Shown piece by piece: positions 7,940 through 33,855 of a stretch of DNA of 64,000 bases (the first letter of the stretch is position 1; the number at the start of each line of letters is the position of its first letter). This DNA comes from a phage, in sequence record PV357171.2; one strand, 5' to 3'. The notes beneath the pieces were generated by a model. That model did not search any database. It worked only from the letters and a program-made list of their open reading frames with translations, and had not been told where the DNA came from. A program made the translations under genes and the position numbers.

Positions 7940-7956
7940 ATTCTGAAATAATTCAT

Positions 7957-9532: not shown

Positions 9533-9642
9533 AGAACTCGCGTAGGACCGAGTTGCGTCACCTGCAACTGTTACGGATAAGGGAGTCGTGCCCCTTAGTG
9601 CGGTAAGTGGTGAGGTGGCTGCTAGCCCTAACTGGAGATAAT

Positions 9643-9987: not shown

Positions 9988-10032
9988 GATTGACACTAAG
10001 TCAGCTTACTAGCAAAAGCAAATAATGACAAA

Positions 10033-10068
10033 GCCCAGCCTGCACTTTTGCGACTGGGCTATTTTTAT
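10033..10068 (+). terminator. rho-independent terminator
   Basis: GCCCAG...CTGGGC hairpin followed by TATTTTTA. Confidence 0.5.
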
Positions 10069-10081
10069 AATAAAATTTTAG

Positions 10082-10110
10082 TTGCTTAGATGCCCAAACT
10101 TTTGTATAAT
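10082..10110 (+). promoter_or_regulatory. sigma70-type promoter (TTGCTT-N17-TATAAT)
   Basis: Hexamers with 17-bp spacer upstream of ORF 10142. Confidence 0.6.
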
Positions 10111-10141
10111 ATGTTTATAGATTGAGGCAAGAGGATTAAAT

Positions 10142-10840: not shown

Positions 10841-11246
10841 GTGGTATATCCTGGGAGCAGGTCTAGCGATAGGCATCGGGTTCGGTGCTTATCACTTAGT
10901 AGATAAAGTGGAGACTTTAGCAGGAGATCTTGCGGTAGCTACTAAAAAGATTTCTTCTCTAGAGACTTCCCTCAATAAGGTGAAAGCTGAAAGCGAACTT
11001 CGTGAGACTAGAATGAATCAGTATTTCACAATGAATAATATTTTGCAAGCAGATCTAGACAAAAAGATTAAGCAGTTAGACAAAGCTCTTAGTCGCCAAG
11101 ATATTATAGCTGCAAAGCCTGGATTGGTAACATTAATTGCTAAAAAGCAGAGTAAAGAGTTCGAGGAAAGATTAGCGTGTTTAACTGGAAACTTGGAATA
11201 CTGCTCGCAGCCGCAATCACAATCACAGGCTGTGCAGAAGAAATAA
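10797..11246 (+). CDS. hypothetical membrane / coiled-coil protein
   Basis: 149 aa; N-terminal hydrophobic segment then coiled-coil-like region; start uncertain. Confidence 0.4.
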   Translation: MDLIQKLLSGIWHGKWYILGAGLAIGIGFGAYHLVDKVETLAGDLAVATKKISSLETSLNKVKAESELRETRMNQYFTMNNILQADLDKKIKQLDKALSRQDIIAAKPGLVTLIAKKQSKEFEERLACLTGNLEYCSQPQSQSQAVQKK

Positions 11247-11530
11247 AACCAGAGCCATCTCATGAGTTAAAGCAAGCTCATGTAGACTGGCCTAAAGGAC
11301 TTCAGCCTTGTAGCTTTGATTTCAAATTCGAAAAGAAATTAGCTACAAATGGCGAAGATGGCGTAGTAGTTGTTGTACCATATAAAGATTGGAATGCAAA
11401 AGCAAAATGTGAGGAAGCAGTTTACTCTTACATTTCACGACTGACTGGTATGGTCTGCTTCTATCGTCAAGATTTACAAGAAAAACGTTGCTTAGTTTAC
11501 TATCCACCCATTACAAATAGGAAAGATTAA
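11177..11530 (+). CDS. putative lipoprotein
   Basis: GTG start; LAAAITITGC lipobox-like signal. Confidence 0.45.
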   Translation: MFNWKLGILLAAAITITGCAEEIKPEPSHELKQAHVDWPKGLQPCSFDFKFEKKLATNGEDGVVVVVPYKDWNAKAKCEEAVYSYISRLTGMVCFYRQDLQEKRCLVYYPPITNRKD

Positions 11531-12282
11531 TGTCAGTATTAGTCGGTTTACATGGTGAAGCTGGTTCGGGAAAAGATACCGTTGCAAAATTAATTATCGA
11601 TTGGTGTAATGACACGTATCCAACGTGTTTACCCCGTCGTTACAGTTTTGCTAAGCCCGTTTATGAACTTGCATCCGTAATCCTCGGTGTAACTCCAGAG
11701 TTTCTAGGAGAGCGCAGGGGAAAAGAGATTGATCAATGGTTTACGGTCACACAATCTCAATTGGAGCGAGCCAGAGATGTGTGGTTTAAGTACGGTATCG
11801 ATAAGTTTGAAGACTTCTCGTACGTTTGGCCTATTTTTGAGGAAAAATATCTTAATCCCCAACAACTTATCTCAGAGAGTAAAGAAGACGGACTTTATAG
11901 TTTATTTATTTCTCCGAGAAAAATGTTACAGCTCGTAGGAACAGAGCTAGGAAGGCAGCTGGTGCATGAACGCATTTGGCTCATAATTCTGGAGCAATCC
12001 ATCGCTAAAGACGACCCAGACGTCGCCGTAATAACAGATGTTAGATTCCCCAATGAAGGAGAGCTACTCAGAGAAACAAACCATTTAGATATGGATTCTT
12101 TGATAGTAAATGTAGTACCCGCTGAGCAGAAGTTCACTATTAAATCAGATCATCCATCTGAAAGTGGTATTCCTGCAAAATATATTACTCACGAATTAGT
12201 TAATAAATTCGATGGTATCAATAACCTTAAACTAGAAGTTTATAACTTCTGTGACTTAGAGCTAGAACCACTAGTTGGATAA
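11530..12282 (+). CDS. P-loop kinase, dNMP kinase-like
   Basis: 250 aa; GEAGSGKDT Walker A near the N-terminus. Confidence 0.55.
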   Translation: MSVLVGLHGEAGSGKDTVAKLIIDWCNDTYPTCLPRRYSFAKPVYELASVILGVTPEFLGERRGKEIDQWFTVTQSQLERARDVWFKYGIDKFEDFSYVWPIFEEKYLNPQQLISESKEDGLYSLFISPRKMLQLVGTELGRQLVHERIWLIILEQSIAKDDPDVAVITDVRFPNEGELLRETNHLDMDSLIVNVVPAEQKFTIKSDHPSESGIPAKYITHELVNKFDGINNLKLEVYNFCDLELEPLVG

Positions 12283-12294
12283 TCAAGGATCGCT

Positions 12295-12894
12295 ATGACT
12301 AATAAAAAAGAAGAAAAGACTAACCTGTTTCACTCCATTCGCCAATCTAACGAGTATACCTTTTTCTTTGATGAAGAGTTAGGCCCGCCGGATGAATACC
12401 GTGATTTATCAATGGTACTTATGCAGGCACATGAGGACGACGAAATTAATCTGATGATTAATGGCCCGGGTGGTTATGTTGATACTGCTGCACAGTTATC
12501 TAACTTAATTGCTAATTGCCGTGGAACAGTTATAGGACACCTGATTGGTCCTAGTGCTTCTGCTTACTGCACAATTTTCCTATCCTGTCATGGATGGGTA
12601 GTACATCCACATGCTACGCTAATGGGACACACGTTCTCTGGCGGATTCTGTGAGAAGGGTCAAGAAATCAAGAAAGCCTATGAATCTTACAACAAGTTCG
12701 TAGAAGATATGATGCTAGATGTCTACTATCCGTTCTTCTCAATAGACGAAATCGACGAGATGGTAAAAGACAACAAAAATATCTATCTAGATAGCAAAGA
12801 AATCCATAAGCGTATTGAAATCTTGGCAAAATATCGATCTGAGCAATATAATAAAGCCCAGTTACCTCAATCAGAGGAGCATAACGAAGAGTAA
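12295..12894 (+). CDS. ClpP-like serine peptidase (S14 family), putative
   Basis: 199 aa; GPSASAY resembles the ClpP active-site serine motif, with downstream His-rich segment. Confidence 0.45.
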   Translation: MTNKKEEKTNLFHSIRQSNEYTFFFDEELGPPDEYRDLSMVLMQAHEDDEINLMINGPGGYVDTAAQLSNLIANCRGTVIGHLIGPSASAYCTIFLSCHGWVVHPHATLMGHTFSGGFCEKGQEIKKAYESYNKFVEDMMLDVYYPFFSIDEIDEMVKDNKNIYLDSKEIHKRIEILAKYRSEQYNKAQLPQSEEHNEE

Positions 12895-12904
12895 GTAATT
12901 TTAA

Positions 12905-12935
12905 GCCAGGGTTTAACGACCCTGGCTTTTCTTTT
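12905..12935 (+). terminator. rho-independent terminator
   Basis: GCCAGGGT-ttaac-GACCCTGGC hairpin followed by TTTTCTTTT. Confidence 0.55.
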
Positions 12936-13050
12936 ATCTAAAATTCTTCTTGACAACGACAAAATTTTATGCTCCAGAAGTGATCTTTAAAAACACATTG
13001 TAATTTTCCTCCAAAATTAGTATAATGGTACTGGTTAGAGGAGGTTACAA

Positions 13051-13707
13051 TTGGAAAAGTTCTTACAATTATTAACGGTACTGCTCCAAGAAGCGAAAGA
13101 TCCAGCATCGCTTCTTAAACGTCTGCTAACTATCTTAGTTGCTGTCATTATTTTCTTATTTGTTAGTAATACTAGCGAGGTGATGTCATTCTTAAAGACT
13201 TTCTCCACGTCTGCGGTTCTACAGGATGTTCAAACTCAAAGGATAGATAACTTTCCTAATGTAGCTAGAGAAAAGAGCATGGTACTTTTTTCTCAAACGG
13301 GTGCGGATGCTGTTTTTGTCGTCAAGTATAAACCAGATGCTATTAATGATTATTCTAACATTATTGCATGGGAAAGCAATGCGCAATTAGATAGGGCTGA
13401 CTTGGCCGATAAAGCGGTAAATAAAACGTCTGAGCTATATAGACGTCACTTGGAGGGCTTTAACTACGCATCGGATTTAAGTGTAAAAGTAAATAAATAC
13501 ATGGGGTTAAATATACCTGCGTTTAAGAACGTTACTTTTAATTACATATACACTTGTCCGTATTTCAATCTAAACAATATCTATGCTGGATATATTGGTA
13601 TTGCTTGGAAAGATAACCCTGTAGATGCAGCCGATTCTGAGAAATTTAAGGAATATTTAACAAAGCTCTGTTCACCACAACAGAGATCTTTAGGTAGATC
13701 AATATGA
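13051..13707 (+). CDS. putative holin (TTG start)
   Basis: 218 aa with one N-terminal transmembrane helix, GAGGAGG before TTG, immediately upstream of and overlapping the endolysin gene. Confidence 0.45.
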   Translation: MEKFLQLLTVLLQEAKDPASLLKRLLTILVAVIIFLFVSNTSEVMSFLKTFSTSAVLQDVQTQRIDNFPNVAREKSMVLFSQTGADAVFVVKYKPDAINDYSNIIAWESNAQLDRADLADKAVNKTSELYRRHLEGFNYASDLSVKVNKYMGLNIPAFKNVTFNYIYTCPYFNLNNIYAGYIGIAWKDNPVDAADSEKFKEYLTKLCSPQQRSLGRSI

Positions 13708-14117
13708 GTTTTAAATTTGGTAAAAATAGCGAAAAACAATTAGCTACCGTTAAGCCAGAGCTACAAAAAGTAGCTCGTAGAGCTTTAGAATTATCTCCAT
13801 ATGATTTCACGATCGTACAAGGTATTCGTACAGTAGCACAAAGTGCCCAGAATATTGCTAATGGTACTTCATTTTTAAAAGATCCTAGTAAAAGTAAGCA
13901 TATTACTGGGGATGCCCTTGATTTTGCTCCATACATTAATGGCAAAATTGATTGGAATGACTTAGAAGCATTTTGGGCAGTTAAAAAGGCTTTTGAACAG
14001 GCCGGTAAAGAACTAGGCGTTAAACTTCGTTTTGGTGCTGATTGGAATGCTTCGGGAGATTATCACGATGAAATAAAACGTGGTACCTATGATGGCGGTC
14101 ATGTCGAACTAGTTTAA
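13704..14117 (+). CDS. endolysin, L-alanyl-D-glutamate peptidase-type
   Basis: 137 aa; size and position match the T5 endolysin as recalled; conserved H/D residues consistent with a zinc peptidase. Confidence 0.65.
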   Translation: MSFKFGKNSEKQLATVKPELQKVARRALELSPYDFTIVQGIRTVAQSAQNIANGTSFLKDPSKSKHITGDALDFAPYINGKIDWNDLEAFWAVKKAFEQAGKELGVKLRFGADWNASGDYHDEIKRGTYDGGHVELV

Positions 14118-14128
14118 TTAATAACTGA

Positions 14129-14151
14129 GGCGGGAATACTCCCGCCTTTTT
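14129..14151 (+). terminator. rho-independent terminator
   Basis: GGCGGGA-atac-TCCCGCC hairpin followed by TTTTT. Confidence 0.6.
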
Positions 14152-14194
14152 AGGCAAAGGGGGCTTTAATAATTTTTAAAGATAGGAGAAAGCC

Positions 14195-14611
14195 ATGTTT
14201 GCAGAACTATTCACTATGATGCTGCTAGGTATCTGGAAAATAAGTCTAGTAGTATTCGTTTTAATGATAGTCTTTACTATCCTTGCATTAACTACCCGAA
14301 ATAGCTTATTAATAAAGGTTATTCACGGACTAGAGTATATAATTATGGGTTCATTCGGCGTTTGTAAATGCAATTGCCATAGAGATACGAAATATTGTTG
14401 GTTATGGATGGAACTAGAGAATCCTATATCCATAGCTTTGGCTGTTTCATTCGGTATGATTCTTATGGCCCTTACTCTAGCATTAATACCTTTGATGTTA
14501 GCTGGGGGAGTTACAGCGTATTTCACCCTTTTCTCCCCGATACTTATGTACTCAATTTACCCAATAACTATGTATCTAGTTAGGAAAAGATTTATACATG
14601 CAGTAGATTAA
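14195..14611 (+). CDS. hypothetical multi-pass membrane protein
   Basis: 138 aa; several hydrophobic helices; AGGAGAAAG before ATG. Confidence 0.5.
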   Translation: MFAELFTMMLLGIWKISLVVFVLMIVFTILALTTRNSLLIKVIHGLEYIIMGSFGVCKCNCHRDTKYCWLWMELENPISIALAVSFGMILMALTLALIPLMLAGGVTAYFTLFSPILMYSIYPITMYLVRKRFIHAVD

Positions 14612-14624
14612 GATAAAAAAGTAG

Positions 14625-14653
14625 TTGACTTTTAGCCCTAGTTATTATATAAT
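14625..14653 (+). promoter_or_regulatory. sigma70-type promoter (TTGACT-N17-TATAAT)
   Basis: Hexamers with 17-bp spacer upstream of ORF 14687. Confidence 0.6.
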
Positions 14654-14686
14654 ATATACATAAATTAGTTAAGAGAGGTATATATT

Positions 14687-15118
14687 ATGTCTGATCGTTT
14701 CTATACTCAAATGGCGGAACATTTTCGTATACCACATTACGAGCTAAACATTGCACTCCGTGATCATGACTCTCCTGAGTACAAAAAGCTCGAAAAGAAA
14801 GCGGAAAAATCTATTGATACAAAGGTAGGTGCATCTATGTCTAAGGGCAAAAAGTTAACTCGTCTTGATCTTAATAAAATTTTAACTGAACTTTTGGGTA
14901 CTGATATTGAAGGTGCTAAATTACCGCTTCTTGTACTAGAGACTATGATTAAAAAGGTCAAAAATAAAGAGTATAAAAAGGTAGAAGTCCCAGAAGGCAG
15001 ATTGAAAGCTCCTTATCAGGAGGCATTAACCGAGTGTTTGGGTGTAAATCTTGATCTAAGCACCGCAACCGTAAAAACTATGAGAAACTTCTTAGAGGCC
15101 ATTAATAACTATGAGTAA
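14687..15118 (+). CDS. hypothetical protein
   Basis: 143 aa; AGAGAGG leader. Confidence 0.55.
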   Translation: MSDRFYTQMAEHFRIPHYELNIALRDHDSPEYKKLEKKAEKSIDTKVGASMSKGKKLTRLDLNKILTELLGTDIEGAKLPLLVLETMIKKVKNKEYKKVEVPEGRLKAPYQEALTECLGVNLDLSTATVKTMRNFLEAINNYE

Positions 15119-15401
15119 ATTAGTATATCTATTAAAAGGTTCCACCTGTAACCCGTGTAAACTTTTCGAGCCAGTATTTGATAAAGTAGTCAATGAATAT
15201 AATTTGGAAGTCCATAAAGAGACTGATAATACAGAATTAATGCAGAAATTTGGCGTACGCCAAGTTCCTGTAGTAGTTCTGGCGGATCGCTTACCTAATG
15301 GTCGAGTAGAAGCTAATCATATTTTGATTGGACGTCAGCTTCGTAAAGAAACTATGCACGAAGCTATTAAAAATTTCCTGGATGATAATCCAGAGGATTA
15401 A
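15111..15401 (+). CDS. thioredoxin/glutaredoxin-fold protein, putative
   Basis: 96 aa; CNPC dithiol motif near the N-terminus. Confidence 0.45.
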   Translation: MSKLVYLLKGSTCNPCKLFEPVFDKVVNEYNLEVHKETDNTELMQKFGVRQVPVVVLADRLPNGRVEANHILIGRQLRKETMHEAIKNFLDDNPED

Positions 15402-15409
15402 TAAACCAA

Positions 15410-15440
15410 GCCTGATCTTAGCGGATCAGGCTTTTATTTT
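15410..15440 (+). terminator. rho-independent terminator
   Basis: GCCTGATC-ttagcg-GATCAGGC hairpin followed by TTTTATTTT. Confidence 0.6.
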
Positions 15441-15442
15441 AC

Positions 15443-15471
15443 TTGCTTTCAGCTAAAAATTTTGGTATAAT
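15443..15471 (+). promoter_or_regulatory. sigma70-type promoter (TTGCTT-N17-TATAAT, extended -10 TGG)
   Basis: Hexamers plus TGn directly upstream of -10. Confidence 0.6.
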
Positions 15472-15498
15472 ACTTATATAAATTGATAGGAGGATTAA

Positions 15499-15744
15499 AT
15501 GTTAGCGGAACAAGCAAAACGTTTAGCTAGGATAAATAGAGCCGCGTCCCTCAAGAGCCGAAAGAAAACGTATAGATGGGTTAAGCGGAGGATAGTATCT
15601 TCTGTCGAGATTGGAGGTTCTTTTGTACAGCTTAATCGTGACGAAATTAGTTATGAAGCTATAAAAGCCCTCAATAAAGAGGGTTATACTCTCAAACTAT
15701 CAAATAATTATGGTACAACTATTTTAAATGTTATTTGGGAATAA
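15499..15744 (+). CDS. hypothetical protein
   Basis: 81 aa; TAGGAGG Shine-Dalgarno. Confidence 0.5.
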   Translation: MLAEQAKRLARINRAASLKSRKKTYRWVKRRIVSSVEIGGSFVQLNRDEISYEAIKALNKEGYTLKLSNNYGTTILNVIWE

Positions 15745-15746
15745 TT

Positions 15747-16610
15747 ATGAAAAAAGAATTTAATGTGCATAAAACACTAGTAGTACCTGATGATGTTAAC
15801 TTATTCTTTGTTGGTGATATTCATGGATGCAACGATTTACTAGAAGATGCACTACAATTAGCTGGCTATAACGGCAAGAAAGATTGCGTTGTATGCGTGG
15901 GAGATTTAATTGATCGAGGCACGCAGAACCTACAAGTTTTAGCCAAATTCCTGTATAATCCACGCTTTATCAGTGTACGTGGTAATCATGACCAATTTAT
16001 GATTGTGGGAGATTGGGCTAACTGGATGTATAACGGTGGTATGTGGGCCATGAATGAACTAGATGCAGATACCATTAAAAATATTGCTGAAGACATGGCT
16101 GAAAAAATGCCAGTATTTCTGACTGTATTGCATCGTGGTAAAAAGTATGGTGTTGTTCATGGTGGTGTACCTTTTACGTACAAAGAATGCGGTAACGAAG
16201 TAGAAACCCCAGTATGGGATAGCCTTATTGCACAAGTAGAAGCAGCTAAGGAAGACCCACATGACCATCCTGGATACCATGTTGAGCCATACTTATGGGA
16301 TCGAGATGTAATCCAAGAAATAGGTTTTCACTTAGCTAAAAATGGTGAAGAACACTCACATTTCCAGCGTTATGCAGGGTTTAAAGAGAAATACATGGTA
16401 GAAGTACCTCCGGTTAATGGAGTAGACTTTGTATTTCATGGGCATACCGGAGTACCTTACCCGATTTTATACCAGAACCGTGTTTACCTAGATACTGGCG
16501 GTGTTTTCAACGGGCAGTTGACGGTTGCGCAGGTTAACGATGAAACTGGCAAAATCACCACATTTACCACAGACAAAAATGATAGCTGCGGTGTACAGAG
16601 GATCCTTTAA
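15747..16610 (+). CDS. Ser/Thr protein phosphatase (calcineurin-like metallophosphoesterase)
   Basis: GDIHGC, GDLIDRG and RGNHD motifs; start set at ATG after the upstream stop (track start 15735). Confidence 0.8.
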   Translation: MKKEFNVHKTLVVPDDVNLFFVGDIHGCNDLLEDALQLAGYNGKKDCVVCVGDLIDRGTQNLQVLAKFLYNPRFISVRGNHDQFMIVGDWANWMYNGGMWAMNELDADTIKNIAEDMAEKMPVFLTVLHRGKKYGVVHGGVPFTYKECGNEVETPVWDSLIAQVEAAKEDPHDHPGYHVEPYLWDRDVIQEIGFHLAKNGEEHSHFQRYAGFKEKYMVEVPPVNGVDFVFHGHTGVPYPILYQNRVYLDTGGVFNGQLTVAQVNDETGKITTFTTDKNDSCGVQRIL

Positions 16611-16897: not shown

Positions 16898-17487
16898 TGA
16901 AGGTTAAATTCTGGTCAGACTTGCACTTAGACCACCCTGGAGCACTACGTTTCCGTCCGTGGTTTAAGAACATGAAAGAGCACGATGAGTATATTCTAGA
17001 TACTTTGTCCAAGCATATTGGTAAACGAACAAAACTTATTTTGCTAGGAGATATTGCAGTAGGTCGTGAAGGTCTGGCCAAATTAAAGTCGGTTATCCAC
17101 AATGTCCCTAATCAACTCATTATGGGTAATCATGATGCGGAGCGTCAAGGACTGAGTATTAGGGACTTAGCGGAAGTTTATGATGATATTCAGGCTCTAG
17201 GTAAACAGACTGGAGGTGGCAAAAAGTTTTGGCTATCTCACTGCCCTTTGCATCCCAATGAACTTCGTGGCAAACTAAATATTCATGGACACGTACATAC
17301 TACTTCTCTACGTGATCCACGTTATATCAATGTTTCATTTGAAATGAGTAAAACTCCAATTCCTCTAGAGGATATTGTGTCTGGTAAGTTTACTAGCTAT
17401 GATAAAGTAGTTAATTGTACTACCGGCGAGGTATTACAAATAGGGGAAGACGTAGCTGCTGTATTACGTGGGGATATAAATGTCTGA
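16897..17487 (+). CDS. metallophosphoesterase
   Basis: LGDIAVGREG, GNHD and GHVH motifs; AAGGAG before ATG. Confidence 0.6.
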   Translation: MKVKFWSDLHLDHPGALRFRPWFKNMKEHDEYILDTLSKHIGKRTKLILLGDIAVGREGLAKLKSVIHNVPNQLIMGNHDAERQGLSIRDLAEVYDDIQALGKQTGGGKKFWLSHCPLHPNELRGKLNIHGHVHTTSLRDPRYINVSFEMSKTPIPLEDIVSGKFTSYDKVVNCTTGEVLQIGEDVAAVLRGDINV

Positions 17488-22964: not shown

Positions 22965-23849
22965 ATGTATAACTTTAAAGATAAACTAAGACAAAATGCT
23001 GGTAAAACAAAACCTAAAGAGAACAATAATGTTCCTAATGCCAAAGTATTACCATTTCCAGAACTATCCCAAGAAGAAAAAGATAAGTTAGCATTTATGT
23101 TTGATGCACTTATAGGGCTAAATGGACGTTTATATTCCTCTCTCAATATTAATGAGAAACGTTTAGTAGAGATGTTTTGTAAACGTTACCAAGTTACTTC
23201 AAAGGGCAATTCTTATAAAGAAGGTGAGAAAGCATTTACAGTCTTAAAGATTAGCGCATATGCACATCGTTTCTTAGTTTATGGGTTGCAAATGGAATAC
23301 TTTACTATCCCATCATTTAGCTCTTTCCATATCTTTGAAGATGAACGAATGAATATTGATGATCTCTACGGGGATACATACAAATACTCAGGAAGTCCAT
23401 TCCACGATGCATTAAGGAGTTACCCATCTAACTATTTACCCATTAGAGCATCTCAAGGTAAAGCTAGCATCTTTGCTGTATACTCAGGATCTAAAGCATC
23501 GGATCTAGAAACTTATATATTTAAAGAGCGTAAATCTGTGCTTCCAGATGAAGCATTGTATAACAATCCATTGCTTCCAGAAAAAGAACCAGAAAAAATT
23601 GATGTAACCCCACCAATACCGTCTGACTCTCAGTATTTAATTTATGAGAAACAAGTTAAGTTATCCCTAGAAATTGGATTAGTTACACCGCTTGCTGCAG
23701 CATTCATAAATAGATATCTAGAAATTCCTGATGAGTTCCACACACGTTATAATACGAATATTCAGATAACGGATGAACTAATTGCGTTAGCAAAAGATAC
23801 ACCTACAGATACTGAGGCGTATCAAAAAGCATACCAAGAGTTACTATAA
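22965..23849 (+). CDS. hypothetical protein
   Basis: 294 aa; GGGAGA before ATG; last + strand gene before the repeat-rich block. Confidence 0.55.
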   Translation: MYNFKDKLRQNAGKTKPKENNNVPNAKVLPFPELSQEEKDKLAFMFDALIGLNGRLYSSLNINEKRLVEMFCKRYQVTSKGNSYKEGEKAFTVLKISAYAHRFLVYGLQMEYFTIPSFSSFHIFEDERMNIDDLYGDTYKYSGSPFHDALRSYPSNYLPIRASQGKASIFAVYSGSKASDLETYIFKERKSVLPDEALYNNPLLPEKEPEKIDVTPPIPSDSQYLIYEKQVKLSLEIGLVTPLAAAFINRYLEIPDEFHTRYNTNIQITDELIALAKDTPTDTEAYQKAYQELL

Positions 23850-23905
23850 TACTCTGCATGTCTCGGTGCACAATACCTGTACCGAGACTCAAATACAAAC
23901 TCTCG

Positions 23906-23934
23906 TTGACAGATAGCTAAATGTATGTTATCAT
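23906..23934 (+). promoter_or_regulatory. candidate sigma70 promoter (TTGACA-N17-TATCAT)
   Basis: Consensus -35 with 17-bp spacer; no ORF follows, it reads into the repeat region. Confidence 0.3.
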
Positions 23935-24243
23935 AACTCTATGAGTTAATAGAATTAACCATTTAGAGTTGCCACACAGAAGGTGTGGTGGTTCAGTAAT
24001 TTAAAATTACTAACTTGTAGCGGAGGATACGGAGCGACAGGACAAGTTAATAAGTAATTTAATATAAATTACTAGAAACATCACGAGACCTTCTGGCGGG
24101 GGGCAAAGCTCTATATGAGAACCCTGGGGGATCTTATATTTAAAATAAAAGTAAAACTTTTGACCACATAATTTACATTCAAGATGATACACCTGTTGCC
24201 GCTCATCTGCTAGGATGGCACAACACTTTCTTCTAGACTCCTA

Positions 24244-24572
24244 AGTTTCTAGGAAATTGATAAGCACAAATTCTAGAGATCACACAAAAATATTCATCGG
24301 ATTTGCACATATTCTAGGGCAGTTTTCACTGTTCCTAGAAACTCCAGCAATAGGCGGTTAATACAGGGCGGTTATAGGGAGGGCGGTTATTTCTAGGAGA
24401 CATTTTTTGAAAACACATTTCCAGAAATTACTGTCGGATTTGCACATTGTGTTTCTAGAAATTTATGGTCGGATTTGCACAAACGCCTAAGTTTTTAGGA
24501 ACTCTTACTCTCCTGAAAATAGCAGCATTATTTCGGGCCGAAGGCCCATGATTGCCTGAGTTTTTAGAGCCA
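24244..24572 (+). repeat. about six dispersed copies of GTTT(C/T)TAG(A/G)AA motif
   Basis: Copies read near 24244, 24321, 24380, 24450, 24487 and 24559. Confidence 0.5.
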
Positions 24573-25034
24573 CAAGAATTTTCACTTGTCAAGCTATTTT
24601 GCCCCATTTTGCTAATAAAATTTTACTTTTTCTGCACCTATCTCAAATTTCCCCAAATTATCTCAACTCTTCCCCAAAATCCCCGCAAATCAGGTGCTCC
24701 GCACCAATCCTGCGCCTACTTCCTTCTAGTCCCAAAATTTCTCTCACTCTCTCATCCTCTCCTCAAACCTATACAATCACACACCCTCTCATCGAAGTCA
24801 TAAAAATCTTGTCGGATTCGCACATCTCAACACATGTCGGATTTGCACATACTCTAGCTAATCCCACAGGATTCGAACGCAGTTCGTGATTGCTGGAGTT
24901 TTTGGGAAAATTCATTGTCGGATTTGCACACTATAAAAATTTTTCGGGTCGGATTTGCACACTACCAAAAATTGTCGGATTCGCACATACACGCCCACGC
25001 GTAATCCATGGGGGCAAATGTCGGTTTTGCACAA
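24297..25034 (+). repeat. nine direct copies of 15-bp motif GTCGGAT(T/C)TGCACA (iteron-like array)
   Basis: Copies at about 24297, 24433, 24468, 24811, 24836, 24917, 24948, 24974 and 25020, all same orientation. Confidence 0.7.
24595..24795 (+). repeat. about 200-bp polypyrimidine (C/T-rich, G-poor) tract on the + strand
   Basis: Strong strand asymmetry with repeated CCCCAAA(A)T units. Confidence 0.6.
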
Positions 25035-25059
25035 AAGCGCAGGGCAATTGCCCTGCTCG

Positions 25060-25255
25060 CCTGAATGCGAATAAAAATAAGAATCATTCTCATTTAAAAA
25101 GTGGAATGCGAATGAGAATCATTATCATTTAGAAAACGGAATGAGAACTATTCAAGAAGTGAAATGATTCTCATTTAAAAAGTGGAGTGATTATCGATTA
25201 GCTAGTGAAATGCGAATGATAATGATTCGCATTTAAAAACGGAAGTGAGAAACAC
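25060..25255 (+). repeat. four degenerate tandem units sharing (C/T)CATTTA(A/G)AAA(GT/C)GGA(A/G)TG and GAATGCGAATGA cores
   Basis: Units read at about 25089, 25124, 25168 and 25228. Confidence 0.5.
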
Positions 25256-25266
25256 TGCTATTTAAG

Positions 25267-25275
25267 TTATCCACA
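25267..25275 (+). promoter_or_regulatory. DnaA-box consensus 9-mer TTATCCACA
   Basis: Perfect match to the high-affinity DnaA box consensus. Confidence 0.5.
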
Positions 25276-25327
25276 GACTTATTAACAGCACGATTTGACT
25301 TGACAGAATCCTAGCCATTTTGAGGCG

Positions 25328-25336
25328 TTATCCACA
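25328..25336 (+). promoter_or_regulatory. DnaA-box consensus 9-mer TTATCCACA (inside left inverted repeat)
   Basis: Perfect 9-mer. Confidence 0.5.
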
Positions 25337-25491
25337 GACTTATCCCCAGGTTATTCTACTGTATAAATATACAGTATTCCTATGCAGTGAATAATTCTAA
25401 TATAGGCTTAAAACGTCCTGAGTGGTGGTACTAAAACAAAGGGGTATTTATCTGAAGGACTGAAAAACTGGGATCTGCTCCCCGCTTGTTA

Positions 25492-25686
25492 TCAGTCCGG
25501 TAATTGATGCGTGATCTTCTCCTCCTCCCCGTAGGAATCCACCAAATGCTGATAATACCCATCGTTATCATAAATCACTTTATCATAATCGCCACGCTCG
25601 ACCGCTTGCCGATTTTCCAGCGTATCAGGCACAAAGAAAGTATCAACGGTAACAGTAGTTTTAGTTACAACAATTTTATCACTCAT
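25492..25686 (-). CDS. hypothetical protein
   Basis: 64-aa ORF inside the inverted-repeat cassette. Confidence 0.35.
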   Translation of the reverse strand: MSDKIVVTKTTVTVDTFFVPDTLENRQAVERGDYDKVIYDNDGYYQHLVDSYGEEEKITHQLPD

Positions 25687-25812
25687 AACGCCATCGCCCC
25701 TAGAATGAGAATGATTATTATTACCATTACAAGCCCGTTACTAAATCGTAAACGCTGGGAATGTTTACCAGCGGTATTATTAGATTTATGGGATTGCGTT
25801 TTACGCCACCAG

Positions 25813-26013
25813 CTATTCACGGTAGACACGCCAGCCGTCTAGCTTCCATTCTTCCCCCTTGCGAATATTGAAAAACCAATCATTAAAATTGTAACCATCT
25901 TCTGACATGATCACGCCGTTTTCTTTCATGTACAAAAATTCATTGCTAGTAAAATATTGATTACTAACTTTAAAACCTTGTTTCATTTTTTCTAGTGCTT
26001 CATCTTTAGTCAT
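25813..26013 (-). CDS. hypothetical small protein (resembles a small phage-associated family with conserved Trp residues)
   Basis: 66 aa; EALEKMKQGFKV...DGW pattern; family assignment is by recollection only. Confidence 0.4.
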   Translation of the reverse strand: MTKDEALEKMKQGFKVSNQYFTSNEFLYMKENGVIMSEDGYNFNDWFFNIRKGEEWKLDGWRVYRE

Positions 26014-26354
26014 TGCGCCACCTTTCGAAACGCTGTTTCAATACTATCCGCAGTGGATTGAATATACGCGCCTTTCATTATCAGGCGCTCGGTACATACC
26101 TTGCGGAAAATATTAATAAAATCATCTTCGTTTTCTGCAATTAATGCTTCACCCATAACCTGAACGTCACAAGATGCAAAGGTCAAAAATTGAAACGCTA
26201 GTTCACGGGCAACGACCGCATTAATTTTATAGTGCGCCTTGCCCTCATAAATATTAATAACGCCCTTATATTCAGGGGAAAGCTGATTTAAATAGTTTGC
26301 TAATAATGCCGGACGGCAATTAGCAACAAAACGATTGCCCTCATAAATTACCAT
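26010..26354 (-). CDS. hypothetical protein
   Basis: Start set at an internal ATG next to the upstream stop (track extends to 26393). Confidence 0.4.
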   Translation of the reverse strand: MVIYEGNRFVANCRPALLANYLNQLSPEYKGVINIYEGKAHYKINAVVARELAFQFLTFASCDVQVMGEALIAENEDDFINIFRKVCTERLIMKGAYIQSTADSIETAFRKVAQ

Positions 26355-26355
26355 T

Positions 26356-26568
26356 TTATAACACTCCACGAAAGGCCGCGTAAAAGGTGGCAAAATGTTT
26401 AACCGTCTCAGCGATCACGTTGCCCCGTTTATCGAATTTCTTTTCTGTAACACGAAAGGCGTTTTTGTTGCGTGCTACATATTCGATTTTACAATCTGGA
26501 CGCTCGAACGTGTTAACGTCCACCAGCTTAAAGCCTTTCGAACGTGTAAGGGAAACGTTACGGATCAT
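26356..26568 (-). CDS. hypothetical basic protein
   Basis: 70-aa ORF in a back-to-back array. Confidence 0.4.
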   Translation of the reverse strand: MIRNVSLTRSKGFKLVDVNTFERPDCKIEYVARNKNAFRVTEKKFDKRGNVIAETVKHFATFYAAFRGVL

Positions 26569-26570
26569 TT

Positions 26571-26759
26571 TTATTCTCCTTTACTAGTCATGCAGCCCAG
26601 CAGATAAGAAAAAACGGCGATACCCGCGCCAATAATAACCATTGGTTTTGTATTTACTAAACCACAATAGGAATCCTGAATACCATAAGCGGTGGCGAAA
26701 AGAGTCAGAATAGCGCCCAAGATACCTGCTAGAATAGCTCGAAAAATAACCATTTTCAT
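26571..26759 (-). CDS. hypothetical membrane protein (two transmembrane helices)
   Basis: Internal start MKMVIFRAILAG... chosen (track extends to 26840). Confidence 0.4.
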   Translation of the reverse strand: MKMVIFRAILAGILGAILTLFATAYGIQDSYCGLVNTKPMVIIGAGIAVFSYLLGCMTSKGE

Positions 26760-26800
26760 TCTCCTAGAAATTAGAGGCGAAAGTAACGCCCAGTTATTGG

Positions 26801-27028
26801 TTACATTAAAACGATTTTGGCGGCTTGTTTTTTGGTGCAATGTTCCGCTTTCAATTCATCCAGCAAAAATCCAGCTGTTTGCTGATCAATCTTGTCATTA
26901 TTGTAAAGCTCCTGAATGGTAACATAAGTTTTAGCAATCCCAAATTCAGAAACCATAACGCTTACAATAGCGGGAACGGATACCCATTCCATACCATTAA
27001 AAATTGCAGAAGATGATGAATGTACCAT
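26801..27028 (-). CDS. hypothetical protein
   Basis: 75-aa ORF, first gene of the - strand array. Confidence 0.35.
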   Translation of the reverse strand: MVHSSSSAIFNGMEWVSVPAIVSVMVSEFGIAKTYVTIQELYNNDKIDQQTAGFLLDELKAEHCTKKQAAKIVLM

Positions 27029-27357
27029 TTTAACGCCTCCTAGAAATCAGGGAAAATTTTCAATCCACCGTTTTGGTGTAAAGGCATTATAACAAAAAAG
27101 GCCACCATAAAAGGCGACCTTTACAAAACTTTACATTAGGTTAATTATTACTCGCTTTCGGTGCTAACGGTAAAAGTAGAAATATCAATACCTTTCACCA
27201 TTTCCAGCATTGCCGCCACCTGGCCGCCGCGTTGGGTCTTTACTTTAATATTACCCCACAGCGTTTAGCTCGTTAGAAAGCGATTTAGGCCGCTTATTTT
27301 GGGCATCATTATAGTATGCTTCCCATTTACCCTGTATATTTATACAGTGGAATAACC

Positions 27358-27366
27358 TGTGGATAA
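27358..27366 (-). promoter_or_regulatory. DnaA-box consensus 9-mer (TGTGGATAA on + strand; inside right inverted repeat)
   Basis: Perfect reverse-complement 9-mer. Confidence 0.5.
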
Positions 27367-27430
27367 GTCTGTGTAAAAGTGCTGTAAAGCCTTCCTATTG
27401 TGTCAATCAAATTTACAAAATGTATAAACC

Positions 27431-27439
27431 TGTGGATAA
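27431..27439 (-). promoter_or_regulatory. DnaA-box consensus 9-mer (TGTGGATAA on + strand)
   Basis: Perfect reverse-complement 9-mer. Confidence 0.5.
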
Positions 27440-27581
27440 CTTAAATGATAGTGGTTCTCACTAACTAATTTATACAGTTATTATATAACAAAATATAGTT
27501 AGTTGGCTAATAGGATTTTAAAGTGATTATGAGTCTGCTAAGTAAACCTGAAAAACTCATTAGGTAGTCTGCTAATGATTT

Positions 27582-27590
27582 TGATATAAT
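27582..27590 (+). promoter_or_regulatory. extended -10 promoter element (TGATATAAT)
   Basis: TGnTATAAT followed by AAACTAATA...AAGGAAACA leader before the HNH gene. Confidence 0.4.
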
Positions 27591-27630
27591 ATAATAGAGA
27601 TTAAACTAATAACATAAGGAAACAATAACA

Positions 27631-28149
27631 ATGGGTCTATTTAAAGATATAGATTATTCGCTTGCTAATGATAACTTTTATTATGATGAAACATCCCCAT
27701 CATTTCTAAGATGGAAAGTACAGAAAGGTAATAGTAAGGTGGGGGATATTGCAGGGCATTATAGTAACACAGGTTACTATCGAGTAAAGTTAGCAGGCGA
27801 ACAATACGCAGTGCATAGAATAATATGGGTATTATTTAATGGTGAGATTGATAGCAATCTAACAATCGATCATAATGATCGTAACCGTGCTAATAATAAC
27901 ATTAATAATCTTCGCTTAGTAGATCATAAGCAGAATACGAATAACAAGAAAGATTATAAGCGTGCTAATAAGTTGCCTAAGCATATCTATTATAATGGTT
28001 CTAGAGTTGATAATAACGGAAGAAACTATTTGCGCGCTATAGTTAAAGATCCTACTAGTAACAAAAGTGTTAGTAAATCAGGTTATGATTTACAAGAGTT
28101 ATTATTATGGGTAGAAACTAAAAAAGCTGAATTTGGGATTGTCAATTAA
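27631..28149 (+). CDS. HNH homing endonuclease
   Basis: 172 aa; YYDETSPSFLRWKV N-terminal motif and DHNDRNRANNNINNLRLV HNH-like core. Confidence 0.7.
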   Translation: MGLFKDIDYSLANDNFYYDETSPSFLRWKVQKGNSKVGDIAGHYSNTGYYRVKLAGEQYAVHRIIWVLFNGEIDSNLTIDHNDRNRANNNINNLRLVDHKQNTNNKKDYKRANKLPKHIYYNGSRVDNNGRNYLRAIVKDPTSNKSVSKSGYDLQELLLWVETKKAEFGIVN

Positions 28150-28494
28150 TTTATTTTATAAATTAACGCAATGCCACTTGATTTTAAAAAGTCAATACCT
28201 TTTCCAACTATTTTTCAATTTTGCTTTTGTTAAATATTTGTTAAATCGAAAATGGGCCGCCTAAAACGCCCTAGAAAGCGGTAAAATTTTCAGGTATGCC
28301 ATTGCATTGCCTACCCTCGTTTATCGCTACCACGAGCTTTCTAGATTTTGTCAATATCCCCAAAGCAAATATAAATGAAAAAATTACTTGCCTATCTGCT
28401 TGGTTTTATGGTATTCACGCGCCCGTTCCTTTTAATTTAGGTGAGCGCCGCACGCCGTCCGGTGAAACTGTATTAGCCATATTGCTAATAATTT

Positions 28495-28537: not shown

Positions 28538-28879
28538 ATGATTGAGCTAACAAAAGATATTGATTTAGAAACTGTGCTAGATAATCTTTACTATGATGAA
28601 ACTAGTCCCAGTTGCCTACGGTGGAAAGTATCCCGCCCCGGTTGCGCCCTTCATGGGGTAGCAGGTACTAAAAGAAAGGATGGTTACTGGTCTGTACAGC
28701 TCAATAAAGAGCGTTACCTAGCGCATCGTATCGTGTGGTTATTATTTAATTATAAAATAGATAGCAAACTAGTAATTGATCATATTGATCGTAACCCTAG
28801 TAATAATTTTATTGATAACTTACGGTTAGTAACTCAAGCCGAAAACAACCAAAATAAGGGAGGCTATAGAAAGGCGTAA
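28538..28879 (+). CDS. HNH homing endonuclease paralog, C-terminally shorter (possibly degenerate)
   Basis: 113 aa; same N-terminal and HNH motifs as 27631..28149 but ends about 60 aa earlier. Confidence 0.5.
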   Translation: MIELTKDIDLETVLDNLYYDETSPSCLRWKVSRPGCALHGVAGTKRKDGYWSVQLNKERYLAHRIVWLLFNYKIDSKLVIDHIDRNPSNNFIDNLRLVTQAENNQNKGGYRKA

Positions 28880-33120: not shown

Positions 33121-33855
33121 ATGAATCAAGTTAAAACGAATATTACCCGTAATTTCCCGCATATTTCCCGCGTCATGATTTGGGATCTTGATGGCACTAT
33201 CGTTAATTCATTCCATCGTGTCGCGCCTTGCTTTGATAGCGACGGGAATTTAAATTTAAATAAGTATAAAAATGAGGCTTGCAAACATGATTTAATAATG
33301 CAAGATACTTTATTGCCTTTGGTGGAATATATGCGCCAATGCATGAATGACGCAAATACTTTAAACATTATTTGCACCGCTCGACTGATGAGCAAATCAG
33401 ACTATTATTATTTGCGTAAACAAGGATTGCGCGGGCGTGGTGATAGTAATATCCGTGTATTTTCCCGCGATACACTGCATAAATATTTTGAGGCTGATAA
33501 GGTTAGCGAAATATACCACAGCAAAGACGCAGTTTATAAATCGTATTATTTTGAGCTATTCAAACAACTATATCCGAACGCTGATTTTACAATGATTGAT
33601 GATCATAAAGGTGTATTATCAGCGGCAGCGTCATACGGATTTAAAACGCTGGACGCGCAAGCCGTTAATGATATTCTATCAATCGGCGTGGCATTGATAG
33701 GCGGAACCTTTATTGATGAATCTCTCGATGATGATAATGATTATCAGTTCCTAGCGGACCGATTGAAATTATGTTGGGAAAGTATGACCGAGGAAGAACG
33801 CGCAGAATATAGTTGCAGCCCGCAACAATATATTGAGAAATTAAAAGTTGCGTAA
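33121..33855 (+). CDS. dmp: HAD-superfamily phosphatase, 5'-deoxyribonucleotidase (dmp-like)
   Basis: 244 aa; DLDGT HAD motif I near the N-terminus; location in the pre-early block. Confidence 0.6.
   Translation: MNQVKTNITRNFPHISRVMIWDLDGTIVNSFHRVAPCFDSDGNLNLNKYKNEACKHDLIMQDTLLPLVEYMRQCMNDANTLNIICTARLMSKSDYYYLRKQGLRGRGDSNIRVFSRDTLHKYFEADKVSEIYHSKDAVYKSYYFELFKQLYPNADFTMIDDHKGVLSAAASYGFKTLDAQAVNDILSIGVALIGGTFIDESLDDDNDYQFLADRLKLCWESMTEEERAEYSCSPQQYIEKLKVA

What the first reader, a model, noticed from the sequence alone, without database searches (positions are those of the whole stretch)
25267..27439. 2-kb gene cassette bounded by 42-bp inverted repeats that each carry perfect DnaA-box 9-mers
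Inverted repeats at about 25332-25373 and 27332-27373 are about 40/42 identical and each contains a perfect TTATCCACA. A second perfect box lies about 60 bp outside each arm, giving four consensus DnaA boxes in mirror symmetry. The enclosed segment holds six back-to-back - strand small ORFs, opposite in polarity to all surrounding genes, and no transposase or integrase. Possible roles are host DnaA titration or recruitment at the boundary of the first-injected DNA, a replication or injection-stop structure, or a mobile or invertible cassette. If compared with T5, its injection-stop region is described, as I recall, as rich in repeats, palindromes and DnaA boxes.
Basis: partly seen in the sequence, partly recalled or inferred. 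Interest (0 to 1): 0.65.

Follow-up and report, generated by a model that had tools for sequence, protein, structure and literature searches.

The report
Known T5 injection-stop inverted repeat
This is the already-described pair of 131-bp inverted repeats with DnaA-binding motifs that brackets a block of first-injected genes in all T5-like phages; what appears to be new is that each repeat also ends in a near-perfect binding site for the host SOS repressor LexA, conserved across the whole phage family.

Summary
Four of the window's five perfect TTATCCACA boxes lie in two inverted arms (25244-25376 and 27330-27462) around six minus-strand ORFs. It is not new. The window is a T5-like phage, and the arms are the IRC/IRD and IRD'/IRC' repeats annotated in T5 record AY587007. 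Davison's 2020 preprint analyses them: paired DnaA boxes, conserved in 25 phages, proposed as part of the injection-stop signal. Later papers say that function is still untested.

In 30 T5-like phages both arms are always present. Arms are no more alike within a phage (73%) than between phages, so motif-level selection keeps them similar, not gene conversion. Box positions vary only where the DnaA consensus is degenerate. I found no transposase or recombinase, and 27 close relatives share one orientation, so mobility and active inversion are unsupported.

Apparently new: the inner end of each arm is a LexA-type SOS box (TACTGTATAAATATACAGTA, one mismatch to consensus). The same 18-mer precedes DinI, UmuD-like and anti-repressor-like genes in unrelated viral contigs. 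A DnaA-box plus CTGT-N8-ACAG module recurs in distant Demerecviridae from Klebsiella, Pectobacterium, Proteus and Vibrio. I found no literature mention.

Most likely role: a host-protein docking module on first-step-transfer DNA. Binding is inferred.

The parts
25244..25376 (.). Left arm, on the injection-stop side. It is the homologue of T5 IRD'-spacer-IRC'.
   Evidence: Inverted repeats I1 and I2. Aligns to AY543070 about 9541-9409, where AY587007 annotates IR C' and IR D'. It is 91-98% identical to the same arm in 27 T5-like phages.
25267..25287 (+). Outer DnaA-box pair of the left arm: TTATCCACA gac TTATTAACA.
   Evidence: The first box is TTATCCACA in 24 of 30 phages.
25300..25305 (+). 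TTGACA hexamer in the spacer. It is nearly invariant in both arms and its function is unexplained.
   Evidence: Present in 28 of 30 phages in each arm.
25328..25348 (+). Inner DnaA-box pair of the left arm: TTATCCACA gac TTATCCCCA.
25357..25376 (.). LexA (SOS) box-like palindrome TACTGTATAAATATACAGTA. It corresponds to T5 'palindrome D'.
   Evidence: One mismatch to TACTGTATATATATACAGTA. It is the only hit with 3 or fewer mismatches in the window, against 0.01 expected. 25 of 30 phages have a version with 1 mismatch. AY587007 annotates palindrome D at the homologous place.
27330..27462 (.). Right arm, on the promoter-distal side. It is the homologue of T5 IRC-spacer-IRD.
   Evidence: Inverted repeats I1 and I2. 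It is 95% identical to the T5 arm (L009/L011). AY587007 annotates IR C and IR D there.
27330..27349 (-). LexA box-like palindrome of the right arm. It reads CACTGTATAAATATACAGGG on the minus strand.
   Evidence: The CTGT-N8-ACAG core is kept in 25 of 30 phages.
27358..27378 (-). Inner DnaA-box pair of the right arm: TTTTACACA gac TTATCCACA on the minus strand.
27419..27439 (-). Outer DnaA-box pair of the right arm: TTATCCACA ggt TTATACATT. The second box is degenerate.
26801..27028 (-). First gene of the enclosed pre-early operon. 75 aa, T5.012-like, function unknown.
   Evidence: phrog_5145, E 6e-48.
26571..26753 (-). 60-aa membrane protein, T5.013-like. T5.013 is annotated with two transmembrane domains and is toxic when expressed alone.
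   Evidence: phrog_5607. Transmembrane note in the T5 record. Toxicity of gene 013 in bioRxiv 10.64898/2026.04.02.716235.
26356..26568 (-). 70-aa homologue of the T5 CDS that RefSeq labels 'endonuclease nicking abasic sites generated by Ung'.
   Evidence: phrog_4227, E 6e-50. NC_005859 puts that label on T5.014.
26010..26354 (-). 114-aa T5.015-like protein. The likely start is the ATG at residue 14 of the 127-aa ORF.
   Evidence: phrog_4379 matches residues 14-127.
25813..26013 (-). 66-aa ORF occupying the place of T5.016. It has no DNA similarity to T5 here.
   Evidence: Gap in the T5 alignment at 25689-26009; phrog_3474; weak Tad2-like hit below the Pfam cut-off.
25492..25686 (-). Last gene of the operon. 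64 aa, T5.017-like.
   Evidence: phrog_6973, E 6e-40.
27086..27122 (-). Terminator-like hairpin (27097-27122) followed by an extended -10 element TGTTATAAT (27086-27094). This is the likely promoter of the six-gene operon.
   Evidence: Hairpin; sequence. It is homologous to the place where AY587007 annotates a terminator and the putative pre-early promoter T5P5.
27148..27214 (-). Remnant 3' end of gene 011 and the deletion junction. The window lacks T5 (AY543070) 6346-7448, which holds gene 011 and its promoter.
   Evidence: blastn of the window against T5 and the T5 annotation.
24288..25233 (.). Injection-stop repeat field outside the left arm, given for context. It holds seven copies of GTCGGATTTGCACA and the AATGAGAATCATT-type palindromes.
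   Evidence: Families D1, D3 and D4. AY543070 annotates iss, and AY587007 annotates direct repeats C and D and palindromes E-J, at the homologous place.

Best explanation
The feature is the IRC-spacer-IRD / IRD'-spacer-IRC' inverted repeat of the T5-family terminal repeat, which is the first-step-transfer (FST) DNA. It brackets the second, oppositely transcribed pre-early operon. The left arm lies about 150-290 bp inside the point where DNA entry pauses.

Each arm is best read as a composite docking site for host DNA-binding proteins. It has two head-to-tail pairs of DnaA boxes and, at the inner end, one consensus-grade LexA operator. My proposal is that pre-existing host DnaA, and probably LexA, load onto these arms as soon as they enter the cell. 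They would build a nucleoprotein complex on the FST DNA that takes part in the pause or restart of DNA transfer, or in control of the pre-early region. The left, stop-proximal arm would be the primary unit and the right arm an old, partly dispensable second copy.

Shown here: identity with the T5 repeats, location, conservation, and motif-level selection.
Inferred: that DnaA and LexA bind, and what the complex does.

The single confidence value combines near-certainty about what the feature is (about 0.97) with roughly even odds on the proposed mechanism.
For: Identity. megablast places the region at T5 5660-9983, inside the left terminal repeat and FST DNA, and overlapping the annotated iss. 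AY587007 annotates IR C/C' (39 nt) and IR D/D' (41 nt) at the homologous places. Davison's preprint describes the 131-bp arms with paired DnaA boxes in 25 phages.

Selection on motifs rather than copying. Identity of left against left arms between phages is 0.91, and right against right is 0.83. Left against right within a phage is 0.731, the same as left against right between phages (0.728).

DnaA-like degeneracy. Across 8 box positions in 30 phages, box positions 1, 2, 4, 7, 8 and 9 are nearly invariant. Position 3 is A or T, position 5 is any base, position 6 is C or A, and the nucleotides between boxes vary freely.

LexA box. It has one mismatch to the 20-nt consensus and is the only such hit in 64 kb, against 0.01 expected. 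Two of the three CTGT-N8-ACAG sites in the window are in the arms. The identical 18-mer sits directly upstream of DinI (PF06183, E 1e-22; phrog_189), UmuD-like (phrog_3469) and anti-repressor-like genes in non-T5 viral contigs.

Family-wide module. In the Klebsiella-type phage and in Pectobacterium My1, Proteus M4H10_20 and Vibrio D254 and Dax (A2 protein 40-65% identical in the Klebsiella, Proteus and Vibrio phages), I found 9 CTGT-N8-ACAG sites against about 1 expected. Eight of them lie next to DnaA boxes on the flanks of the same gene block. The central 8 nt differ while CTGT and ACAG are kept.

A host factor is plausible. According to Davison, the stop occurs without protein synthesis, yet full ejection happens into FhuA proteoliposomes.
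Against: No binding experiment exists. PMC10644984 (2023) and PMC13250531 (2026) both state that the role is unproven.

About half of the boxes deviate from the strict TTWTNCACA consensus.

The LexA-like boxes do not overlap a convincing sigma-70 promoter. The classic way LexA acts therefore does not apply, and its role here would be unusual.

Other invariant blocks (AGTGAGAA, ATTTAAG, the spacer TTGACA) are explained by neither protein.

The right arm is less conserved, is truncated in Klebsiella-type phages, and is reported to be absent from 'Type 4' phages. The pairing of the two arms is therefore not essential.

The membrane-DnaA stop model comes from an unreviewed preprint.
Confidence: 0.55

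Rival explanations
1. The arms are bound by phage-encoded proteins, for example the DNA-binding protein A2 with A1, or another pre-early product. The resemblance to host DnaA and LexA sites would then be coincidence or mimicry. The palindrome could be the target that A1/A2 cut or use to release the paused DNA.
For: Conservation extends beyond what DnaA or LexA need: the whole 20-mer, GGTTATCCTA, AGTGAGAA and TTGACA are nearly invariant. A1 and A2 are required for second-step transfer, and A2 binds DNA. Davison proposes palindromes, palD among them, as A1/A2 cleavage sites.
Against: The stop itself happens without phage protein synthesis. The motifs keep the exact host consensus cores in phages whose A2 is only 40% identical. 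They vary precisely at the positions where the host consensus is degenerate. The same 18-mer serves SOS genes in unrelated phages.
Confidence: 0.2
2. The arms are transcription-control elements of the enclosed operon. DnaA and LexA bound at the right arm would modulate the divergent pre-early promoters. The same proteins bound at the left arm would act as a roadblock that stops RNA polymerase from running into the DNA still threaded through the envelope. LexA cleavage after A1-driven host DNA breakdown would time a switch.
For: The right arm lies between the two divergent promoters annotated in T5, and the left arm lies just downstream of the last gene and its terminator. Several enclosed genes (011, 013, 015) are toxic, so tight control is plausible. 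That DnaA-box complexes can block transcription is established knowledge recalled from memory; I did not check it here.
Against: No promoter overlaps the boxes. In T5 the box is about 200 bp upstream of the gene-011 promoter. The arm geometry is unchanged in lineages where the interior genes run the other way (Klebsiella type, My1), which argues against a role tied to operon direction.
Confidence: 0.15
3. The segment is a mobile or invertible cassette, and the inverted repeats are its recombination ends.
For: Gene content between the arms varies: the gap ranges from 1580 to 4050 bp, and gene 011 is absent here. In Klebsiella-type phages the interior genes, including the gene-011 homologue, are on the opposite strand and next to the other arm, as a single ancient inversion would produce.
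Against: I found no transposase, integrase or invertase in or beside the segment. The segment has the same position in every relative and the same orientation in 27 of 27 close relatives. The arms are only 73% alike, the longest shared exact run is 17 nt, and there is no concerted evolution.
Confidence: 0.03
4. The box clusters form a DnaA-dependent replication origin or a site that titrates DnaA.
For: The clustered, oriented DnaA boxes are reminiscent of oriC. Davison notes the same resemblance.
Against: According to Davison, T5 origins map near mid-genome and the replication genes arrive only with the second-step DNA. Eight sites per repeat cannot titrate cellular DnaA; this is my inference. 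I did not look for a DNA-unwinding element.
Confidence: 0.03

Closest known systems
Phage T5 Repeat Regions 2 and 3: IRC-spacer-IRD and IRD'-spacer-IRC'. Annotated in GenBank AY587007 and analysed in Davison 2020, bioRxiv 10.1101/866236.
   Same: Same locus, same 131-bp arm layout, same paired DnaA boxes 3 nt apart, same neighbouring injection-stop repeats. The arms are 93-95% identical to those of T5.
   Different: The distance between the arms is 1955 bp here against about 3180 bp in T5, because gene 011 and its promoter are missing. The T5.016 position holds a different gene. All four pairs carry a consensus-class box in this window, whereas T5 has lost one box.
DnaA-box arrays of the chromosomal origin oriC.
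   Same: Clusters of same-orientation 9-mers of TTATCCACA type, mixing consensus and weaker boxes, with the two clusters facing each other.
   Different: The box period is 12 bp, and the two clusters are 2-4 kb apart rather than within about 250 bp. No unwinding element was identified. According to the literature, no replication starts here.
SOS (LexA) operators of prophage dinI, umuD-like and anti-repressor (Tum-like) genes.
   Same: The identical 18-mer TACTGTATAWWTATACAG.
   Different: In those phages the box sits 20-40 nt upstream of the regulated gene's start codon. In T5-like phages it overlaps no recognisable promoter, occurs as an inverted pair kilobases apart, and is fused to DnaA boxes.
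Invertible segments and composite transposons bounded by inverted repeats (the Hin/Gin type, or IS-flanked cassettes).
   Same: Inverted repeats flank a gene block whose content and, in deep lineages, orientation differ.
   Different: I found no recombinase, the location in the genome is fixed, and the arms are diverged. Orientation is constant among close relatives.

Membership tests
T5-family FST inverted repeat (IRC-spacer-IRD / IRD'-spacer-IRC') | Lies in the terminal-repeat / first-step-transfer DNA, between the A2-side pre-early genes and the injection-stop repeats. | tested here: met
   The region maps to T5 5660-9983, inside the left terminal repeat and overlapping iss. A2 lies 2.4 kb to the right.
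T5-family FST inverted repeat (IRC-spacer-IRD / IRD'-spacer-IRC') | Two arms of about 131 nt, each made of a 39-nt and a 41-nt repeat separated by a spacer of about 52 nt. | tested here: met
   The arms are 25244-25374 and 27332-27462, 131 nt each. The T5 annotation has the same layout, as does Davison's description.
T5-family FST inverted repeat (IRC-spacer-IRD / IRD'-spacer-IRC') | DnaA or DnaA-like boxes in pairs 3 bp apart, two pairs per arm. | tested here: met
T5-family FST inverted repeat (IRC-spacer-IRD / IRD'-spacer-IRC') | Sequence homology to the T5 arms. | tested here: met
   93% (left arm) and 95% (right arm) identity to T5 loci L009/L011.
Functional injection stop signal (cis-acting stop of DNA transfer) | DNA entry pauses at or next to the element, and the pause is lost when the element is altered. 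| not testable with these tools
   Only position supports this. The left arm lies about 150-290 bp inside the T5 shear point when mapped onto the window.
DnaA-binding site cluster | 9-mers matching TTWTNCACA, with variation confined to the degenerate positions. | tested here: met
   position-wise counts; enrichment of perfect boxes.
DnaA-binding site cluster | DnaA protein binds. | not testable with these tools
   The literature states that no experimental study exists.
LexA (SOS) operator of Gammaproteobacteria | CTGT-N8-ACAG palindrome with an AT-rich centre, close to TACTG(TA)5CAGTA. | tested here: met
   The cores are kept and the centres vary in distant relatives.
LexA (SOS) operator of Gammaproteobacteria | Overlaps or abuts the promoter of a regulated gene. 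| tested here: not met
   Only weak 9-of-12 promoter-like matches are found, no more than in shuffled sequence. In T5 the box is about 200 bp from the gene-011 promoter.
LexA (SOS) operator of Gammaproteobacteria | LexA binds, and the response depends on RecA-mediated cleavage. | not testable with these tools
   Indirect support only: the identical 18-mer precedes DinI, UmuD-like and anti-repressor-like genes elsewhere.
Transposon or insertion cassette | Encodes or neighbours a transposase or integrase, and has a variable genomic location. | tested here: not met
   No such domain was found. The location is fixed in 30 of 30 relatives.
Site-specific invertible segment | An invertase gene, and both orientations found among close relatives. 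| tested here: not met
   No recombinase was found. 27 of 27 close relatives have the same orientation. Only a deep lineage differs.
DnaA-dependent replication origin | DnaA boxes next to an AT-rich unwinding element, with initiation mapped there. | not tested
   I did not search for an unwinding element. The literature places T5 origins mid-genome.

The most novel reading that the evidence does not exclude
Every Demerecviridae phage carries, at the inner border of its injection-stop region and usually again a few kb upstream, a fused module of DnaA boxes plus a consensus LexA operator. Host LexA, and therefore the SOS state of the cell, together with DnaA, would physically take part in pausing or releasing two-step DNA transfer or in timing pre-early events. 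For example, LexA could vacate the site once A1-driven host DNA breakdown activates RecA. That would be a use of the SOS repressor by a strictly virulent phage as a structural or sensing factor rather than as a promoter repressor.
Probability: 0.3. Interest if true: 0.7.

Novelty: already known. Interest (0 to 1): 0.35.

Why it matters
How T5 stops DNA entry after 8% of its genome and later restarts it has been open since the 1960s. These arms are the best-conserved candidate cis element for that process.

The analysis here sharpens what should be tested in three ways:
- The arms are kept similar by selection on individual motifs, not by gene conversion.
- The stop-proximal arm is the better-conserved unit.
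- A LexA-type operator is fused to the DnaA boxes across the whole family.

This turns a vague 'repeats and palindromes' region into two named host proteins. Their mutants (dnaA, lexA(Def), lexA(Ind-)) and purified forms are standard reagents.

Tried and rejected
- I spent the single genome-contig scan on the A2 alignment by mistake. It returned only two short metagenome-assembled-genome (MAG) fragments and was of no use.
- Vibrio phage pVp-1, bases 1-16000: the record is permuted and the stretch holds replication genes, so I did not use it.
- Rfam on 23800-28200 gave no RNA family at E up to 0.1.
- The promoter scan found nothing above the shuffle background. The idea that the LexA-like boxes are ordinary SOS promoter operators was therefore dropped.
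- The perfect Fur-type box at 33732-33746 looked exciting, but it lies inside the dmp-like ORF, where it encodes DDDNDYQ. It is probably a coding coincidence.
- The invariant spacer TTGACA was examined by eye as a possible -35 element. No -10 element lies at a usable distance in either arm, so it remains unexplained.
- Davison's 2015 review (DOI 10.1080/21597081.2015.1086500) is not held. I did not attempt the subscription-journal papers by Heusterspreute (1987) and Wang (2005). I therefore cannot exclude that one of these already noted the LexA resemblance. Six full-text searches of the held library (and within Davison 2020) found no such mention.
Full report
**Observation**

The window holds five perfect TTATCCACA 9-mers against 0.69 expected by chance. 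Four of them lie at 25267 and 25328 (+) and at 27358 and 27431 (-). The repeat finder reports two nested inverted repeats: 25300-25374 with 27332-27406 (75 nt, 77%) and 25244-25282 with 27424-27462 (39 nt, 85%).

A direct alignment of the two arms shows that the boxes come in head-to-tail pairs 3 nt apart.
- The left arm carries TTATCCACA-gac-TTATTAACA and TTATCCACA-gac-TTATCCCCA.
- The right arm carries TTATCCACA-ggt-TTATACATT and TTTTACACA-gac-TTATCCACA.
- The two inner perfect boxes therefore occupy different members of their pairs. The mirror symmetry is one of modules, not of the perfect 9-mers.

Six minus-strand ORFs lie between the arms, and all neighbouring ORFs are on the plus strand. 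PHROGs and Pfam find no transposase or integrase. An HNH endonuclease gene lies just outside the right arm.

**What it is**

megablast against phage records gives 450 T5-like hits. The region maps to T5 5660-9983, inside the left terminal repeat, which is the first-step-transfer (FST) DNA, and it overlaps the annotated injection stop signal. T5 record AY587007 annotates 'inverted repeat C/C'' (39 nt) and 'inverted repeat D/D'' (41 nt) at exactly the homologous places. It also annotates 'palindrome D' at the inner end of D'.

Davison's preprint (bioRxiv 10.1101/866236) describes the 131-bp IRC-spacer-IRD and IRD'-spacer-IRC' arms in detail. It reports eight DnaA or DnaA-like boxes in pairs 3 bp apart, conservation in 25 T5-like phages, and a variable distance between the arms (1851-4258 bp). 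It proposes that membrane-bound DnaA binds them to stop injection. Papers from 2023 and 2026 state that this role is still untested.

The enclosed ORFs are the homologues of T5.012 to T5.017, with two differences:
- Compared with T5, the window lacks AY543070 6346-7448, which holds gene 011 and its promoter.
- The window has a different gene in the place of T5.016.

The finding is therefore a rediscovery of a known, annotated feature, and its leading interpretation is the published hypothesis.

**New comparative evidence**

Using the A2 protein as an anchor, I fetched 40 loci from viral contigs, which gave 30 distinct phages. All 30 have both arms in the same relative orientation. Mean identities are as follows:

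| Comparison | Mean identity |
|---|---|
| Left arm vs left arm, between phages | 0.91 |
| Right arm vs right arm, between phages | 0.83 |
| Left vs right arm, same phage | 0.731 |
| Left vs right arm, different phages | 0.728 |

So there is no concerted evolution. The duplication is old, and purifying selection on particular blocks keeps the arms alike.

Within the eight box positions, box positions 1, 2, 4, 7, 8 and 9 are nearly invariant. Position 3 is A or T, position 5 is any base, position 6 is C or A, and the nucleotides between boxes vary freely. This is the degeneracy of the DnaA consensus TTWTNCACA, with extra tolerance at position 6, and it supports DnaA-type recognition as the constraint.

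In 27 close relatives the interior genes are always on the same strand and in the same order. In the Klebsiella-type lineage (L040, L042) the interior genes, including the gene-011 homologue, are on the other strand and next to the other arm. This fits one ancient inversion or a refill of the interior. It does not fit an active switch.

**The LexA-type box**

The best-conserved block of both arms is the inner end.
- The left arm has TACTGTATA(AA/TT)ATATACAGTA, and 25 of 30 phages are one mismatch from the LexA consensus TACTGTATATATATACAGTA.
- The right arm has TACTGTATAAATATACAGGG.

In the window, 25357-25376 is the only site within three mismatches of that consensus, against 0.01 expected. 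Two of the three CTGT-N8-ACAG sites in 64 kb are in the arms.

The exact 18-mer occurs in at least 120 stretches of viral contigs. Most of the 80 listed stretches come from contigs shorter than about 65 kb, which are not T5-like. There it sits 20-40 nt upstream of three kinds of gene:
- DinI (PF06183, E 1e-22; phrog_189);
- UmuD-like proteins (phrog_3469);
- an anti-repressor-like family (phrog_450, with a weak hit to phrog_1760).

These are classic SOS-controlled functions, so this sequence is a working LexA operator elsewhere.

I also examined distant Demerecviridae whose A2 is only 40-65% identical. In the five loci together there are 9 CTGT-N8-ACAG sites against about 1 expected. Eight of them adjoin DnaA boxes on the flanks of the same gene block:

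| Phage | CTGT-N8-ACAG sites found |
|---|---|
| Klebsiella type (L040) | 2 |
| Pectobacterium My1 | 1, plus a CTGT-N8-CCAG variant at the stop side |
| Proteus M4H10_20 | 2 |
| Vibrio D254 | 2 |
| Vibrio Dax | 2 |

The central eight bases differ between lineages (ATAAATAT, ATATTTAT, ATAAACAT, ATATCCAT, ATATAATT, GTATTTAT), while CTGT and ACAG are kept. On the stop side the nearest DnaA-like box ends 8-11 nt before CTGT in every lineage.

I found no mention of LexA or SOS in Davison's text or in five library searches. Davison's 2015 review is not held, and I did not attempt the older subscription-journal papers.

**How it most likely works**

Shown: the arms are conserved cis elements of the FST DNA whose constrained positions coincide with two host consensus sites.

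Inferred: pre-existing DnaA and LexA bind as the arms enter the cell. The left arm's outer edge maps about 156 bp, and its LexA-like box about 270-290 bp, inside the T5 shear point when transferred to the window. It would therefore have just emerged into the cytoplasm when transfer pauses.

According to Davison, the pause needs no phage protein synthesis, yet it does not occur with FhuA proteoliposomes. Both observations fit a host factor.

Several points count against the simple picture:
- No binding data exist.
- The LexA-like boxes overlap no convincing promoter.
- Other invariant blocks (AGTGAGAA, ATTTAAG, the spacer TTGACA) remain unexplained.
- The right arm is less conserved, and Davison reports it absent in some phages.

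The rivals are binding by phage proteins such as A2/A1, a role as transcription roadblock or operator for the partly toxic enclosed operon, a mobile or invertible cassette, and a replication origin. The last two are essentially excluded.

**Verdict**

The feature is already known. The fused LexA-type operator, conserved across the family, is the one element that seems undescribed. It makes the old injection-stop question more directly testable.

Noticed in passing
window 25078-25231 and 25706-25720; also L011 4422/4463, L040 4062, L168 12224/12317: Fur-box-like 7-1-7 palindromes (TGAKAATNATTMTCA) cluster in the non-coding injection-stop DNA. For example, TGAGAATCATTATCA at 25113 is one mismatch from the Fur motif TGATAATNATTATCA. 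The window has 6 hits against 0.14 expected. Similar ones lie in the same region of T5, a Klebsiella-type phage and My1. The phage consensus differs from Fur symmetrically at one position, so the binding protein is uncertain.
   Followed up: partly
window 33732-33746: A perfect Fur-type box, TGATAATGATTATCA, conserved in T5 and in the Klebsiella-type phage. It lies inside the dmp-like ORF 33121-33855, where it encodes DDDNDYQ, so it is probably a coding coincidence.
   Followed up: yes
window 24288-25036: Seven copies of GTCGGATTTGCACA, the 'direct repeat D' of T5. They span the mapped position of the major nick and the end of the terminal repeat. No binding factor is known.
   Followed up: no
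window 25813-26013 (-): A 66-aa ORF replaces T5.016. It has a weak hit to the Thoeris anti-defence Tad2-like domain PF11195 (E 0.004, 18 bits, below the 25-bit cut-off). Its homologue is present in only 3 of the other loci (L003, L008, L038).
   Followed up: partly
window 27631-28149 and 28538-28879 (+): Two HNH homing-endonuclease ORFs in tandem just outside the right arm. The second is shorter. A 122-nt direct repeat (27805-27926 and 28715-28836, 74%) and repeated upstream sequences suggest a duplicated or decaying homing-endonuclease insertion.
   Followed up: no
window 25366-25367 and the aligned column in L003-L042: The two central bases of the LexA-like palindrome switch between AA and TT, which is the reverse complement of the centre. 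This occurs in 9 of 30 left arms and 4 of 30 right arms. The pattern fits a protein that reads the site symmetrically, or template switching at a hairpin.
   Followed up: partly
window 27205-27214 (junction); T5 AY543070 6346-7448: This phage lacks gene 011, which is toxic in E. coli according to recent papers, together with its experimentally characterised promoter. The six remaining genes are probably driven by an extended -10 promoter (TGTTATAAT, 27086-27094, minus strand) directly after a terminator hairpin.
   Followed up: partly
window 26356-26568 (-); NC_005859 T5.014: RefSeq and PHROGs attach the label 'endonuclease nicking abasic sites generated by Ung' to the 70-aa T5.014 homologue, whereas the papers call that gene 015. 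This is a numbering mismatch between records and literature.
   Followed up: partly
L040 4260-8168, L042, L168 7872-11805: In the Klebsiella-type phages all interior genes between the arms are transcribed in the opposite direction to the T5 group; in Pectobacterium My1 most are, with three genes running the other way. The arm geometry, with the LexA-like boxes innermost, is unchanged in both.
   Followed up: partly
window 17093-17101 (+): A fifth perfect TTATCCACA box, far from the arms in the early-gene region. I did not examine it.
   Followed up: no
window 1332-6522: A cluster of 15 tRNA genes, all on the plus strand. This is typical of the T5 tRNA region.
   Followed up: no
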